Assembly: GCF_009914755.1 (NCBI RefSeq) | Contig: NC_060928.1 | DNA: 64,000 bases | Direction: 5' to 3' (one strand) | Origin: the human T2T-CHM13v2.0 reference genome, Homo sapiens | Shown: in pieces, positions 42,413 through 62,072 of the stretch | How positions within the stretch are numbered: position 1 is the first letter of the stretch | Layout: each line of letters begins with the position of its first letter | Translations under genes and position numbers: made by a program | The notes under the pieces: generated by a model | Seen by the model: only the letters and a program-made list of their open reading frames with translations | Databases searched by the model: none | What the model was told of the DNA's origin: nothing

Positions 42413-42504
42413 GTTAGAGAATCAGTGATAAATCGTTTCTTAATTGCAAAACAATATTTTCTTCTTGCTGATATGATAGTAGAAGAAGAAGTTCCCAATA
42501 TCAG
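42413..42504 (+). CDS. CC2D2A: CC2D2A exon (92 nt) VRESVINRF...EEEVPNIS
   Basis: ttctttccccag|GTT ... ATCAG|gtaaaa. Confidence 0.95.
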
Positions 42505-45216
42505 GTAAAAATAATCAAAGCCATTATTATCAATTCTTATAAAAATTATTATTTATACTCTATTATATGAAAGGTATCATATAAGATTTTTAAAAATCAT
42601 CGTATGGTATGCATTTGGGCCAGGAATAATGTGTTAAACCTGGTTAATACCTGATGATGACATTAGTTGAGGGATTTCTACTAGAACAAGTCTTCCTAGG
42701 GCCTCTCCCATTGCATTCCAACAAACCCCATCTCACCTCCCCTACTTCCAAATCAACTTCATTAGCCTTTGCCATTTTCTCATTCCCGTTGAACTAAACC
42801 TGACAGCATTTCCCTCCTGCAAGTACTTCTCCTGTTTTCCTAGTCTCCCAGTGCCAGACATTCCCTTACTCTCCTGTCGCATGGCAGTAGAGGTGGCTGA
42901 GACCCCACCCACAAGCTTCTGGGGTGGACGAGGAAACCTGGTTGCAGCACCACAGCTGGTGGGCAGAGAGCTGGTGCATGTGCTTGGTGAGAGTGTAGAA
43001 CAGCAGGAAAGATTTGATATTCACACAGATATTGGGAATTGACTGTATTTGCTTGATTGACTCATTAGTTTGGATAATTGTAAATTGGCTTCAACTAGGG
43101 GTGTGGATATAGAAAAGATGAAAGATAATTTCCCATACTGGTGGTCTTGTGCAGGCCACATGACCTTTTCTGTGATTAAGTCTCTTGGTCTCCTAAAAAG
43201 GTTTTTTCTATGCATATACTTTCTCTCCACCATCAAGTTGGGAAGGAGACAAAAAAAATGTGCAATCCATAGCAGCCCCTTTCCACATATAGAAAGGAGG
43301 CTACACCCACATAAATCCATGCAAAACCTCTCTCTCTATTCCAGGCCCACAGTCCAGTCATTGAATGTTTTCAAAGTCATGAAAATTACACTTAGAATAG
43401 ATGATGATTTTTCATATTGTTTTTTTTTTCTTTTCCTTCCTTTTTTTCTGCTTTACTTTCTGCATTAAGTTCTGAAGGCTCAGGGTATGTTCTTTCTTCT
43501 TTTAATTTCAGTTCCTTCTTGGCTTTAAGATGTTTCTGTATTTGATGGTCCTGGCTGACATGGTGCTCCCATGCTGACTGCTATGGAGACATCAAAGTCT
43601 CAGGGAGGACTTACCTCCAGGGGAGGGAGGAAGCATTGACAATGGAAGAGTGTTGTCATGTTAGGACCTCTAACAAAGTTCTGTCTCTGAGGCCCCCTAG
43701 TTTGGGTTAGGTAGGTGTCCTGGCAGAGTGATTAAAAACATGAGCTATATAGTCACAGTGACCTGAGTTTGAACCCCTGCTCTCCCTCCTACTACTAAGG
43801 AACCTTCAGCAAATCATAACACCTCTCGTAGCCTCTAATTTCTTCATCTGAAATACAGGGTAAATATTATATGCGTAAAGATTAGAAATGTTATATGTAA
43901 GGCACCCAGCACTCTTCTCAATACATAGGAGGTGCTTATAAATGGTAGCTATTTTGTGTAAAACCTTGGAGAATAAACAGGAACAACAGCTCCTGGAATC
44001 CTGGAACTTCCTTGGGTTTCCTTATAGGAGCTGTCAGCAGCGCCTAGACAGGAGCTGCAGAGACCTCAGCCTCAGCTGGCATGTGCCTCTTGCAAAGAGG
44101 GGCTCCAGTCAAGAGGTCACTTAGCCAGCTCTGATCCTCAGGAAGGAAGCAGAGAACCATGTGCATTATAGCCTGTGGCCAGCTCTGCAAAGCTGGCTTT
44201 GTTCTTTGGCTGTTTCACACAGCCATTAACATCAGCTTCCAGATACAGTCACATCTTTGTTTCTGTTTAGTTTCTGGGCCAGAATTTATTTGGTCCATGA
44301 ACGTTTCTCCTATGATTCACTGACTCTGTTGCTTTCATCTTCCAGGAAGTGTTTCTTGCATATCATCTCCGTGAAAGGTAGAGACATGAGAGAAGGAGTC
44401 TCTTGCTTCTCCCCTAACCCCTTCCTCCTCCCTATACCTCCTCCTCTTCTTCCACCTTAATCACTGGCATCAACCCAATAGTTACCATTTTAGGACATCT
44501 ACTAAGTGCTAGAGCAGTGTCAGGGTGCTTTACACACACTTCCTTATTCAATCCCTTCAACAATCCAAAGAAGTAGGTATCATTATCCACATTTTACAGA
44601 TGATGAAACAGAGACTTAAAGAGGTGAAATGATTTGCCCAAGGGCAAAGAGTGGAGCCAGGATTCACACCCAGTTCTAACTCCAGAGTGAAAGAGATAAC
44701 CCAGGAACTGCCTAAGCAGCTGTACACACCCACTGTCATGTGAAGGGAGCAGGCTAATAGGAGCTCAAGAGGTTTGGAAGAGAGAGTAACCCTTCCAGCT
44801 GGAGTAGCTGAGTCTCTGGGGGAGGTGGACACTGGCCCCAAGGGATGGGTAAAACTGCAACCAACTAGGCAGACAAGGAAGATGCAGGGAGGCATTCCCT
44901 CTGCAGGACTGGCCCAAGCAAATGTGAAGGATGGGAGACCATAGGCATGTTTGAGGAACTGGTGGGTGAGCAAGGTAGAGATAAGGCAGGAAATGTAAGG
45001 GCCAGAGCATGGCTTCTCTTCCTTGGATAAGCAGCAGCTAGAGTAAGTTTTAACAATCCATGCAGTAGGATCTCGCCCATTTGGGAGAATTTCTAGACTA
45101 TTTCCACCCACCTTCAAAGGACAAGGAGTTTTTCAGGGGCGTGTGCAGGACCATGGGGCAGAGTTCGGGAAGTCGTCTCACAATTTTGCAGACCTTTCTT
45201 TTTCTTAGAGTCCTGA

Positions 45217-45405
<189 letters not shown>

Positions 45406-49558: not shown

Positions 49559-49668
49559 GTTTTAGTACGTCCCTTTGTAGAAGTCTCTTTTCAACGAACA
49601 GTTTGCCATACGACTACGGCTGAAGGACCAAACCCTAGCTGGAATGAAGAACTAGAACTTCCATTTAG
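49559..49668 (+). CDS. CC2D2A: CC2D2A exon (110 nt) [11 protein letters not shown]...[16 protein letters not shown]2 core
   Basis: gattttaag|GTT ... TTTAG|gtaagc; C2 motifs PFVEV and NPxWNE. Confidence 0.97.
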
Positions 49669-55971: not shown

Positions 55972-56352
<381 letters not shown>

Positions 56353-56925: not shown

Positions 56926-58491
56926 TTAAGAAATAAATGTCTTCCTGTAACATAGTTGTATAGCATTTATACATACTGCCCTCATTGGATTTGGGAGAAT
57001 ATATTGATGGTGACCTCTTATTCATATGTAAACAAATACAGTAATAACATCAACAACAACCACCATGATGTACTGAATCCGTACTCTGTCCTTAGCACTA
57101 TGTCAAACCTTGGATGCATGTTCTGACCTGAATATGCATAGGTGTCTTGGACAAGGGGTCTCCAACTTACAGAAGAGGAAAATAAGCTTCAATTTATGCA
57201 GGGTGACATAGGCAGAGGTAACACATGTCTGTCTGACTCTAAACTGTACATATTCAGCATATATTTACTGCACATCTTCTGTGTGACAGACATTTCTTAG
57301 GCACTGGGAGTACAGTAGGCTAGAAAAGCAAATAAAAATTCCTCCAAGCTTACATTCACATGTAAGCGTAAGTTGTTAACTACTAACCTATAGTGCACAG
57401 ATTATTGTGCTTACTCTAGTCTATCCATTATAATTAAGACTTAGATAGAGATGGAAAAAAACAAACATACTCCTTTTTTTCCAGTATTACAATTTGGTTC
57501 CCAGAGAAAAATATCATCACTATCTCCCATCTGCAATGCACTGAAATTTAAATTAATTGTATATTTTGTCAGTAAAACAGTGCTTCTCTAGATATATGCA
57601 TTTCAAAATATTTTAGAAAGGGAAAATATATTCTGAATGTTTGTCTTCATGTATAATATAAATTCAAATGAACGCCAACAAACATGTTTACACACAAAAA
57701 TACTTCCAGACAAAAGATGATTTTGCTGTTTCTATGTATATGTAACAGAAGAACAGGCAGTCAGCTAGGACCCCACCTTGGGGGTGTGTTTCTAAAACAC
57801 GTGAAAGCAGTCTATCCTGGCAGAAACGATGAAAGCCCAAGACTCCTCCACGCTAGGCATCCCTCACGGGCCCTGACTTCTTACTGCAGGACTTTAAAGA
57901 GGCCTCCAGGGCTCTGAACCACAGTCCTCAAGTCCTGCAGCCTTCCTTCCCTAAAGCTATTAAATGGCAGTCAGATTCTGCCTTTGGTGGCAGGTCACTA
58001 CCGCACTGTGGCTGTAGAAAGCATTTATCTTAGACCTCTAAAATGAGGGCTTAAAAAACCCCTATGGAAGGCAGATTCTTTGTGGCTGTTTGATAAGGAA
58101 GGCATGTTGATTGACAGAACCCTTATGTCCAAAAGAGGCAGTGGCAGAAAACACTGCTCAGTGATTCACTTGCAGACAATTCAGGAAAGAGAAGGTCTCA
58201 TCCTAAAATTATAGGGTCAACAACCTGGAATTGTTTTTCCACTTACAGCAATACTTCCTGGATTAGCAGATTAGAGTCTCTCCTCTACCACCATGCCATA
58301 TGGAACCATTCCATAGGATGTTTTAAACATATCTACCAATGGAAAATTTTTAAAGATGGGTAGAAACTCCTGAAACTCTTATTTTAATATCACTTACATG
58401 ATCTTGTTAAAAATGTTTTTTTAAAGATTATCTCTGTTACTAAAGCCTGCCTCTTGTTTCTTTTTCTTTCTTTCTTTCTTGCCTCTGATAG

Positions 58492-58512
58492 ATGAGTAAC
58501 ATGCTTAAGAAG
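58492..58512 (+). CDS. CC2D2A: Candidate alternative 21-nt microexon of CC2D2A (MSNMLKK)
   Basis: Long pyrimidine tract, then ttgcctctgatag|ATGAGTAACATGCTTAAGAAG|gtactaag. Phase 0-0 fits the flanking exons and there is no stop. Confidence 0.7.
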
Positions 58513-58869
58513 GTACTAAGTATTTTGTTTTACTATTTTATTGGTCAATAGTTATTAGGCTTTAATTAGCTGCTTCTGTCCACTGCCACCTGAGGGACAG
58601 GTGTTATGTCCTAACGTATGTGTAATGCCTGGGCATTGAATTACAGATGTCTCCAGTTCCATGAGGAATGTCCTGCCTTATCTTTTGGCCCATTTCATTT
58701 TACCAGAAAGACTGTTAGTTAGCTTTGAATCTAAGAAGTCATCAGTCTGAATGTCACCTGCATACTGGGAGCTAGCTCTACTCTTTGCAAATCTATAAAA
58801 CCCACGAGCTGCTTCTTACAGTGTATCTCTGAAAGTTATTTCTGGTGGGTTGGGGCTGTCTCAGTACAG

Positions 58870-61820: not shown

Positions 61821-62072
<252 letters not shown>

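What the first reader, a model, noticed from the sequence alone, without database searches (positions are those of the whole stretch)
58440..58570. Hidden 21-nt in-frame microexon (MSNMLKK) with SRRM3/4 and Musashi-type cis-code
Seen: about 30 nt of nearly pure pyrimidines (58451-58480), TGC at 58480-58482 (12 nt before the exon), AG at 58490-58491, 21 nt ATGAGTAACATGCTTAAGAAG, a weak donor AAG|gtacta, a U-rich stretch, then three TAGs (58549, 58556, 58567). It is phase 0-0 and would give ...[22 protein letters not shown] just after the C2 domain. It is absent from the ORF track and from the canonical protein as I recall it. Known: UGC close to the 3' splice site marks SRRM4/SRRM3-dependent neural microexons, and UAG clusters downstream of exons mark MSI1/2-activated photoreceptor exons. 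I recall Cc2d2a among ciliary genes with photoreceptor-specific exons, so this may already be described, but I cannot confirm it is the same exon. Inference: a retina/neuron-specific transition-zone isoform that standard exon panels may miss.
Basis: partly seen in the sequence, partly recalled or inferred. Interest (0 to 1): 0.85.

Follow-up and report, generated by a model that had tools for sequence, protein, structure and literature searches.

The report
Known CC2D2A photoreceptor 21-nt microexon

Summary
The sequence features are all present at the stated coordinates. The 21-nt exon 58492-58512 is in frame and inserts MSNMLKK between GESIREK and FESQEDEK.

It is the published human retina-enriched microexon VastDB HsaEX0012804. 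Ciampi 2022, Dataset S1, gives hg38 chr4:15576604-15576624, 21 nt, retina PSI 94 against 0.91 elsewhere.

The mouse ortholog (mm10 chr5:43728271-43728291) is also 21 nt, with the same 177-nt and 204-nt flanking exons. It was described as photoreceptor-specific in 2016 and falls in Msi1/Msi2 knockout retina. Deleting it by CRISPR gave no visual phenotype. The mouse knockout guide RNA matches the window only once, across this exon's 3' splice site.

In published data SRRM4 expression raises human inclusion in 6 of 6 cell lines with values. SRRM3 or MSI1 alone in HEK293 gave 0. MSI1 knockdown lowers it in human retinal organoids.

It is absent from the RefSeq models in the hub table, so it may still matter for variant interpretation. 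Novelty: already known. Interest is low.

The parts
56038..56214 (+). Upstream constitutive CC2D2A exon (177 nt, phase 0-0), ending ...GESIREK
   Evidence: Hub annotation. Frame checked. Same 177-nt length as the mouse upstream exon in the rMATS rows.
58438..58444 (+). Candidate distal branch point TACTAAA (branch A about 58443, 48 nt before the AG). Inferred only.
   Evidence: Read. The last AG upstream of the acceptor is at 58444, so an AG-free zone runs 58446-58489. No experimental support was seen.
58450..58479 (+). Long CU-rich polypyrimidine tract with six TCTT motifs of the PTBP1 type. It contains a (TTTC)4.5 repeat at 58463-58480.
   Evidence: (88% pyrimidine). The preprint 10.1101/2021.08.04.454918 reports PTBP1 motifs upstream of 'CC2D2A exon 30' (passages).
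58480..58482 (+). UGC motif 12 nt upstream of the exon, between the pyrimidine tract and the AG (SRRM3/4-type enhancer position)
   Evidence: Ciampi 2022 reports UGC enrichment upstream of retina microexons.
58490..58491 (+). 3' splice site AG
   Evidence: Conserved in mouse according to the guide RNA match.
58492..58512 (+). 21-nt photoreceptor-specific microexon encoding MSNMLKK (VastDB HsaEX0012804)
   Evidence: Ciampi Dataset S1 gives hg38 chr4:15576604-15576624, 21 nt. That is 18,112 bases from the CHM13 position, against 18,118 for the second microexon. The mouse knockout guide matches 58485-58504.
58513..58518 (+). Weak 5' splice site AAG|GTACTA (5 of 9 consensus positions)
58548..58569 (+). 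Three UAG triplets (58549, 58556, 58567), 37-57 nt downstream of the exon. The first lies in AUAGU, which fits the Musashi consensus [GA]U1-3AGU (consensus recalled).
   Evidence: Musashi binds the proximal downstream intron of the exons it activates. The preprint reports MSI1 motifs close to the donor of 'exon 30'.
61857..62060 (+). Downstream constitutive exon (204 nt, phase 0-0), starting FESQEDEK
   Evidence: Hub annotation. The mouse RT-PCR reverse primer matches 62023-62042 with 3 mismatches. Same 204-nt length as the mouse downstream exon.

Best explanation
Window 58492-58512 is the human copy of the known photoreceptor-specific 21-nt cassette microexon of CC2D2A (VastDB HsaEX0012804; the mouse ortholog is at mm10 chr5:43728271-43728291). 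The exon is poorly defined on its own, because it is very short and has a weak donor. Its long CU-rich tract probably places the branch point about 48 nt upstream and offers PTBP1-type sites. It is therefore skipped in nearly all tissues.

In photoreceptors two activators act together. SRRM3/4 works through the UGC 12 nt upstream of the exon. Musashi 1/2, which is very abundant in photoreceptors, works through the UAG cluster 37-57 nt downstream. Together they bring inclusion to about 90%.

The product is CC2D2A with seven extra residues (MSNMLKK) in a region without an annotated domain, C-terminal to the C2 domain.

Shown in published data: the tissue pattern, the SRRM4 response, the Musashi dependence and the lack of a phenotype when the exon is deleted in mouse. 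Inferred: direct binding at these particular motifs, PTBP1 repression, the branch point, and any role of the peptide. My best guess is that the peptide's effect is subtle or neutral.
For: Identity:
- Ciampi 2022 Dataset S1 lists CC2D2A HsaEX0012804 at hg38 chr4:15576604-15576624, 21 nt, retina PSI 94 (3 replicates) against 0.91 in 18 other tissues.
- That position is 18,112 bases from the CHM13 position of 58492-58512.
- The second listed exon (15 nt, hg38 15561588-15561602) falls on an AG/GT-flanked 15-mer at 43470-43484, an offset of 18,118.

Mouse ortholog:
- It is 21 nt, with 177-nt and 204-nt flanking exons as in human.
- Ciampi gives retina 87.98 against 1.76 elsewhere.
- Wild-type inclusion is 0.78-0.91 against 0.23-0.34 in photoreceptor-less Aipl1-/- retina.
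- The mouse knockout guide Cc2d2a-1 matches the window once, at 58485-58504, across the AG and the first 13 exon bases, with 12 of 13 exon bases identical.
- The mouse RT-PCR reverse primer matches the human downstream exon.

Regulation:
- SRRM4 dPSI is +32, +25, +57, +23, +22 and +43 in 6 of 6 lines with values; one line is NA.
- Msi1/Msi2 double knockout gives 0.70-0.86 falling to 0.39-0.48, FDR 3e-6.
- Major reduction in the retina-wide Msi1/Msi2 knockout.
- Splicing is affected only when all four Musashi alleles are lost.
- MSI1 raised inclusion in N2A cells.
- An MSI1 morpholino lowered 'exon 30' in human retinal organoids, and the authors report MSI1 motifs near its donor and PTBP1 motifs upstream.

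The cis features in the window fit this account.
Against: - MSI1 overexpression alone gave dPSI 0 in HEK293 and in HepG2, and SRRM3 alone gave 0 in HEK293. Neither is sufficient there.
- Ciampi 2022 concludes that retina microexons are largely unresponsive to MSI1.
- The published human RT-PCR for CC2D2A in that paper uses primers flanking the 15-nt exon, not this one. The human SRRM4 response of the 21-nt exon therefore rests on RNA-seq values only.
- The UAG cluster is only modestly enriched (3.8% of 60-nt intronic windows).
- I saw no CLIP evidence for binding at this exon.
- MSI1 knockdown in organoids also lowered CRX, NRL and NR2E3, so part of that effect could be indirect.
- Deleting the exon in mouse, alone or together with the Ttc8 and Cep290 exons, gave normal ERG and histology up to 12 months. 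No function of the peptide is shown.
- I inferred the hg38-to-CHM13 mapping from offsets, exon lengths and primer or guide matches. I did not obtain it by liftover.
Confidence: 0.93

Rival explanations
1. The exon is driven essentially by SRRM3/4 alone. The downstream UAGs are incidental in human, and the Musashi effects are indirect, arising through photoreceptor maturation or gene expression.
For: MSI1 alone gave dPSI 0 in HEK293 and HepG2, while SRRM4 gave +22 to +57 in 6 of 6 lines. Ciampi 2022 states that SRRM3/4 is sufficient for most retina microexons and that they are largely unresponsive to MSI1. Three TAG in 100 nt occurs in 13.5% of intronic windows. MSI1 knockdown in organoids also lowered CRX, NRL and NR2E3.
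Against: Induced Msi1/Msi2 knockout in mature mouse photoreceptors lowers inclusion by 0.32. The authors describe these retinas as still morphologically normal at the stage they sampled for protein levels. MSI1 transfection raised inclusion in N2A cells. The neighbouring 15-nt CC2D2A microexon has no TAG within 177 nt downstream, and 'exon 24' was not MSI1-dependent in organoids. That is the contrast expected if proximal UAGs matter.
Confidence: 0.15
2. The exon is a functionally neutral insertion. It is conserved only because harmful changes within it are selected against, and it gives CC2D2A no photoreceptor-specific function.
For: Mouse exon knockouts, single and triple, have normal ERG and histology to 12 months. 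The authors themselves raise this reading and note that the Cc2d2a exon is absent from several species. The length is not fixed: the zebrafish counterpart is 15 nt. No Pfam or PROSITE domain overlaps the exon or its neighbours.
Against: Inclusion is near-complete and switch-like in photoreceptors of human, mouse and zebrafish eye. The authors state that conservation is traceable to fish. In the 13 exon bases covered by the mouse guide, 12 are identical to human. Laboratory conditions may hide a subtle phenotype.
Confidence: 0.45
3. The motif combination is a chance pseudo-exon that is not spliced in human tissue.
For: It is not in any of the 8 RefSeq transcripts in the hub table. 1226 frame-preserving AG...GT candidates exist in the window's introns.
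Against: Published human retina PSI is 94 for a 21-nt CC2D2A exon at the matching position. The mouse ortholog is validated by RT-PCR. The mouse guide matches here. Only the 2 published exons among the 1226 candidates combine a strong pyrimidine tract with a proximal UGC.
Confidence: 0.01

Closest known systems
CC2D2A retina-enriched microexon HsaEX0012804 / mouse MmuEX0009427 (Murphy 2016; Ciampi 2022; Matalkah 2022)
   Same: Same gene and same intron, between the 177-nt and 204-nt exons. Same 21-nt length. The hg38 coordinates sit at the offset expected from CHM13. The mouse knockout guide matches across the acceptor.
   Different: Nothing found. This is the same element. The human exon encodes N where the mouse guide sequence implies D at residue 3.
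Second CC2D2A retina microexon, 15 nt (HsaEX0012807; window 43470-43484)
   Same: Same gene and in frame (inserts SEGSG). Long pyrimidine tract (90%). UGC 9 nt upstream of the exon. Retina PSI 95.4 against 0.59. SRRM4-responsive.
   Different: No TAG within 177 nt downstream. 'Exon 24' was not reduced by the MSI1 morpholino in organoids. In mouse it was not significant in the Aipl1-/- comparison.
Photoreceptor-specific microexons of Cep290 (21 nt) and Ttc8 exon 2A (30 nt)
   Same: Ciliary genes with switch-like photoreceptor inclusion that is Musashi-dependent. Deleted in mouse in the same study without phenotype.
   Different: Different genes. For TTC8 (BBS8) exon 2A, a splice-site mutation causing nonsyndromic retinitis pigmentosa is in print; I saw only the reference title. 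No such variant report for the CC2D2A exon appeared in searches.
SRRM4-dependent neural microexons
   Same: Length of 27 nt or less, a UGC close to the 3' splice site after a pyrimidine tract, and activation by SRRM4 expression.
   Different: Not included in mammalian brain (mouse PSI_Neural 8.4). Inclusion needs the photoreceptor context.

Membership tests
Retina-enriched microexon (RetMIC, Ciampi 2022) | Exon of 27 nt or less with much higher inclusion in retina than in all other tissues | not testable with these tools
   No RNA-seq is available here. Published values: 21 nt, retina 94 against others 0.91, maximum in others 13.42. The exon is on the authors' list.
Retina-enriched microexon (RetMIC, Ciampi 2022) | The window element is the listed exon (coordinates, length, splice sites) | tested here: met
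   Length 21 with AG and GT present. Offset to hg38 is 18,112, against 18,118 for the second listed exon. The mouse guide and primer match at the expected places. No formal liftover was run.
SRRM3/4-dependent microexon | UGC within about 20 nt upstream of the 3' splice site, next to a pyrimidine tract | tested here: met
   TGC at 58480-58482, 12 nt before the exon, directly after an 88% pyrimidine tract.
SRRM3/4-dependent microexon | Inclusion rises on SRRM3 or SRRM4 expression, or falls on their loss | not testable with these tools
   Published: SRRM4 dPSI +22 to +57 in 6 of 6 lines with values, and SRRM3 in HEK293 gave 0. A zebrafish 15-nt cc2d2a exon (DreEX0019277) falls by 55 in srrm3 mutant eyes at 5 dpf. 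I could not verify that it is the ortholog of this exon.
Musashi-activated photoreceptor exon | UAG motifs in the proximal downstream intron | tested here: met
   Three TAG 37-57 nt downstream, one within AUAGU. Three or more in 60 nt occurs in 3.8% of intronic windows.
Musashi-activated photoreceptor exon | Inclusion depends on MSI1/MSI2 | not testable with these tools
   Published for mouse: falls by 0.32 in the double knockout, with further support. Published for human organoids: reduced by an MSI1 morpholino. MSI1 alone in HEK293 and HepG2 gave 0.
Musashi-activated photoreceptor exon | Direct Musashi binding downstream of this exon (CLIP) | not tested
   Matalkah 2022 has eCLIP data. I did not find or read a peak for this exon.

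The most novel reading that the evidence does not exclude
Clean skipping of the exon is harmless in mouse. However, about 94% of human photoreceptor CC2D2A transcripts include it, and it is missing from the RefSeq models. A stop, a frameshift or a splice-site-shifting variant inside 58490-58518 would therefore truncate CC2D2A in photoreceptors only. It would be filed as deep-intronic. This would give nonsyndromic retinal dystrophy without Joubert features, as reported for the retina-specific exon 2A of BBS8/TTC8. Searches found no report of such a CC2D2A variant.
Probability: 0.2. Interest if true: 0.5.

Novelty: already known. Interest (0 to 1): 0.15.

Why it matters
The biology is already in print: the exon, its tissue pattern, its regulators and a mouse deletion. 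The remaining value is practical. None of the 8 RefSeq transcripts in the hub table contains the exon, and a long-read atlas reports that the most abundant CC2D2A isoform in human retina is a novel, uncatalogued one. I did not check whether that isoform contains this exon. Variants in or next to the exon may be read as deep-intronic in patients with unexplained retinal dystrophy. The case also shows that a simple cis-code picks out both true CC2D2A retina microexons among 1226 frame-preserving candidates in this window. That code is a strong pyrimidine tract, a UGC near the acceptor and an open frame.

Tried and rejected
- Second mouse knockout guide (downstream intron): no match in the human window within 3 mismatches. 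This is uninformative.
- RNA structure over 58430-58580: no signal (z = +0.81; 155 of 200 shuffles fold at least as well).
- Rbfox GCAUG motifs within 200 nt on either side: none.
- Pfam on single exons: only one marginal C2 match, in exon 49559-49666 (22.2 bits against a cut-off of 22). Two weak sub-threshold matches in other exons (DUF1869, DDA1) I take as chance. The spliced protein could not be scanned or folded, because joined sequences are not accepted. The structural setting of the 7-residue insert is therefore untested.
- Vertebrate conservation could not be computed, because no vertebrate genomes are held. I relied on published coordinates and primers. Supplementary Fig. 6 of Matalkah 2022 (the alignment) and the SI Appendix of Ciampi 2022 are PDFs that I could not read.
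- Two reviews added nothing on this exon.
- Pseudo-exon by chance: rejected (see rival explanations).
Full report
**Observation.**
- A pyrimidine tract at 58450-58479.
- TGC at 58480-58482.
- AG at 58490-58491.
- The 21-mer ATGAGTAACATGCTTAAGAAG at 58492-58512.
- The donor AAG|gtacta.
- TAG triplets at 58549, 58556 and 58567.

The 21-mer translates to MSNMLKK. I joined the annotated coding exons of the window in a script. The single open frame shows that exons 56038-56214 and 61857-62060 are both phase 0-0. Adding the 21-mer gives ...[22 protein letters not shown] with no stop.

**Is it more than chance?** I scanned 49,905 intronic bases between the annotated exons, leaving out 60 nt at each intron end. 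There are 1226 AG-(3n, up to 27 nt)-GT candidates that keep the frame open.
- Only 5 have at least 80% pyrimidines in the 40 nt upstream.
- Only 2 of those 5 also have a TGC within 20 nt of the exon: 58492-58512 and 43470-43484.
- I set the thresholds after seeing the candidate, so this is a description and not a blind test.
- The TAG cluster alone is modest. Three or more TAG occur in 3.8% of 60-nt and 13.5% of 100-nt intronic windows. None of the 19 annotated exons has three in its first 100 downstream bases.
- The donor matches 5 of 9 consensus positions (consensus recalled). That is the lowest value in the set and is shared with 2 of the 19 annotated exons.
- The last AG before the acceptor is at 58444, leaving an AG-free zone of 44 nt. 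TACTAAA at 58438-58444 is a plausible distal branch point; this is inference only.
- A perfect (TTTC)4.5 repeat forms part of the tract.
- The RNA shows no unusual folding (z = +0.81).

**Identity with a published human exon.** Full-text searches found a body of work on a photoreceptor-specific Cc2d2a exon. I read Dataset S1 of Ciampi et al. 2022 (PMC9303857) as supplement passages.
- It lists two human CC2D2A retina-enriched microexons in hg38.
- HsaEX0012804 is at chr4:15576604-15576624, 21 nt, with retina PSI 94 (3 replicates) against 0.91 in 18 other tissues and a maximum elsewhere of 13.42.
- HsaEX0012807 is at chr4:15561588-15561602, 15 nt, with 95.4 against 0.59.
- The window is CHM13 chr4:15500001-15564000. 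The 21-mer lies at CHM13 15558492-15558512, which is 18,112 bases from the hg38 entry.
- At nearly the same offset (18,118), the window holds an AG/GT-flanked 15-mer, TTCTGAAGGCTCAGG, at 43470-43484. It is also in frame and inserts SEGSG.
- Two exons of exactly the listed lengths, at offsets that differ by 6 bases over 15 kb, make the mapping secure, although I ran no liftover.

**Mouse ortholog.** The supplement of Murphy et al. 2016 (PMC4991804, supplement passages) has an rMATS row for Cc2d2a at mm10 chr5:43728271-43728291.
- The exon is 21 nt, with a 177-nt upstream and a 204-nt downstream exon. These are the same lengths as the human flanking exons.
- Inclusion is 0.78-0.91 in wild-type retina against 0.23-0.34 in photoreceptor-less Aipl1-/- retina.
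- The RT-PCR primers are listed for that same exon.
- The main text (passages) calls it a switch-like photoreceptor exon whose inclusion MSI1 promotes in N2A cells.
- Ciampi's mouse sheet lists the same coordinates (MmuEX0009427), with retina 87.98 against 1.76 and PSI_Neural 8.4.

Matalkah et al. 2022 (PMC9509328; passages plus supplementary files 1, 2 and 9) give the same coordinates for their primers.
- Their rMATS row shows inclusion falling from 0.70-0.86 to 0.39-0.48 after induced Msi1/Msi2 knockout in photoreceptors, FDR 3e-6.
- Their reverse primer matches the human downstream exon at 62023-62042 with 3 mismatches.
- Their knockout guide Cc2d2a-1 matches the human window once, at 58485-58504 on the minus strand, with 3 mismatches. 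None was expected in 100 shuffles.
- The match spans the acceptor AG and the first 13 exon bases, of which 12 are identical. The one exon difference implies D in mouse where human has N.
- The second guide has no match within 3 mismatches.

**Regulation in print.**

*SRRM3/4.*
- Ciampi Dataset S6 gives dPSI values for the 21-nt human exon. SRRM3 gave 0 in HEK293. SRRM4 gave +32.2 in HEK293, +25.0 in the DU line, +57.2 in HCT116, +23.4 in HeLa, NA in MCF7, +22.0 in MDA and +43.5 in SH-SY5Y.
- SRRM4 therefore raises inclusion in 6 of 6 lines with values.
- The section I read concludes that SRRM3/4 suffices for most retina microexons, that MSI1 may modulate them, and that UGC upstream and UAG downstream are enriched.
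- The CC2D2A RT-PCR in that paper uses primers at 42445-42470 and 45258-45278. It therefore tests the 15-nt exon and not this one.

*Musashi.*
- Dataset S6 gives MSI1 dPSI 0 in HEK293 and 0 in HepG2. MSI1 alone does not raise inclusion there.
- The preprint 10.1101/2021.08.04.454918 (passages) reports that in human retinal organoids an MSI1 morpholino lowers 'CC2D2A exon 30' but not 'exon 24'.
- It reports that exon 30 has MSI1 motifs close to the donor and PTBP1 motifs upstream, while exon 24 has its MSI1 motifs further downstream.
- This fits the window. The 21-nt exon has TAGs at +37 to +57 and six TCTT upstream, while the 15-nt exon has its first TAG 178 nt downstream.
- Sundar et al. 2020 (PMC7948980, passages) report a major reduction in retina-wide Msi1/Msi2 knockouts.
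- A 2026 paper (PMC13175383, abstract and passages) shows that one Musashi allele is enough to keep 'Cc2d2a exon 32' included.

**Function.**
- Matalkah et al. deleted the exon in mouse by CRISPR. ERG and histology stayed normal to 12 months, both alone and combined with the Ttc8 and Cep290 exon deletions.
- The authors discuss whether such exons are neutral, and note that the Cc2d2a exon is absent from several species. Their Supplementary Fig. 6 is a PDF that I could not read.
- In zebrafish the alternative exon they assay is 15 nt. Their primers read as the counterparts of the two human flanking exons; this is my reading of the primer sequences.
- The authors' computed inclusion there is 92% in eye, 55% in brain and 0% in muscle (n = 5). 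In that spreadsheet the raw-volume row labels look swapped relative to the inclusion row, so I used the inclusion row.
- The length is therefore kept between human and mouse but not to fish.
- Ciampi's zebrafish tables list two 15-nt cc2d2a exons. One of them (DreEX0019277) falls by 55 in srrm3 mutant eyes at 5 dpf. It is probably the counterpart of this exon, but I could not verify that.

**Protein context.**
- A Pfam scan of single exons gave a C2 (PF00168) match only in exon 49559-49666: E = 1.7e-4, 22.2 bits against a cut-off of 22, profile positions 22-56 of 104.
- The next four exons gave nothing. The insertion point is therefore about 125 residues after that match.
- If the rest of the C2 model ran ungapped, the insertion would fall roughly 75 residues past its end. 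This is inference.
- Ciampi Dataset S4 reports no Pfam or PROSITE domain in the upstream, alternative or downstream exon.
- 'Just after the C2 domain' is thus only loosely right.
- I could not scan or fold the spliced protein.

**Mechanism.** A 21-nt exon with a 5-of-9 donor and a long CU-rich tract is too weakly defined to be used by default, and PTBP1-type motifs may add repression (inferred). SRRM3/4 acts through the UGC next to the acceptor, and Musashi acts through the proximal UAGs. Photoreceptors have both at high levels, which explains the near-complete inclusion there and the skipping in mammalian brain. The tissue pattern, the SRRM4 response and the Musashi dependence are published results. 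Direct use of these particular motifs is inferred.

**Verdict.** The one point still open is practical. The exon is missing from the 8 RefSeq transcripts in the hub table. A long-read atlas of human retina (PMC11450717, one table row read) reports that the most abundant CC2D2A isoform there is a novel, uncatalogued one; I did not check whether it contains this exon. My searches found no report of a disease variant in this exon.

Noticed in passing
window 43470-43484 (+), with flanks 43430-43490: A second CC2D2A microexon absent from the RefSeq table: the 15-nt TTCTGAAGGCTCAGG. It is AG/GT flanked and in frame (inserts SEGSG between ...VPNIS and ILGLS...). It has a 90% pyrimidine tract and a TGC 9 nt upstream of the exon. 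It matches the published HsaEX0012807 (retina PSI 95.4 against 0.59). It has no TAG within 177 nt downstream, in line with its reported independence from MSI1.
   Followed up: yes
window 58463-58480: A perfect (TTTC)4.5 short tandem repeat forms the 3' part of the polypyrimidine tract and runs into the UGC. Length variation here could change the spacing between branch point, tract and UGC. I did not check whether it varies among people.
   Followed up: no
window 42445-42470 and 45258-45278: The human CC2D2A RT-PCR primers of Ciampi 2022 flank the 15-nt exon, not the 21-nt one. The gel in their Fig. 3B therefore does not bear on the exon of this finding.
   Followed up: yes
Matalkah 2022 supplementary file 2, sheet for Suppl. 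Fig. 6: In the zebrafish RT-PCR table the raw-volume rows labelled 'skipped' and 'included' appear swapped relative to the authors' computed inclusion percentages, for both Ttc8 and Cc2d2a.
   Followed up: partly
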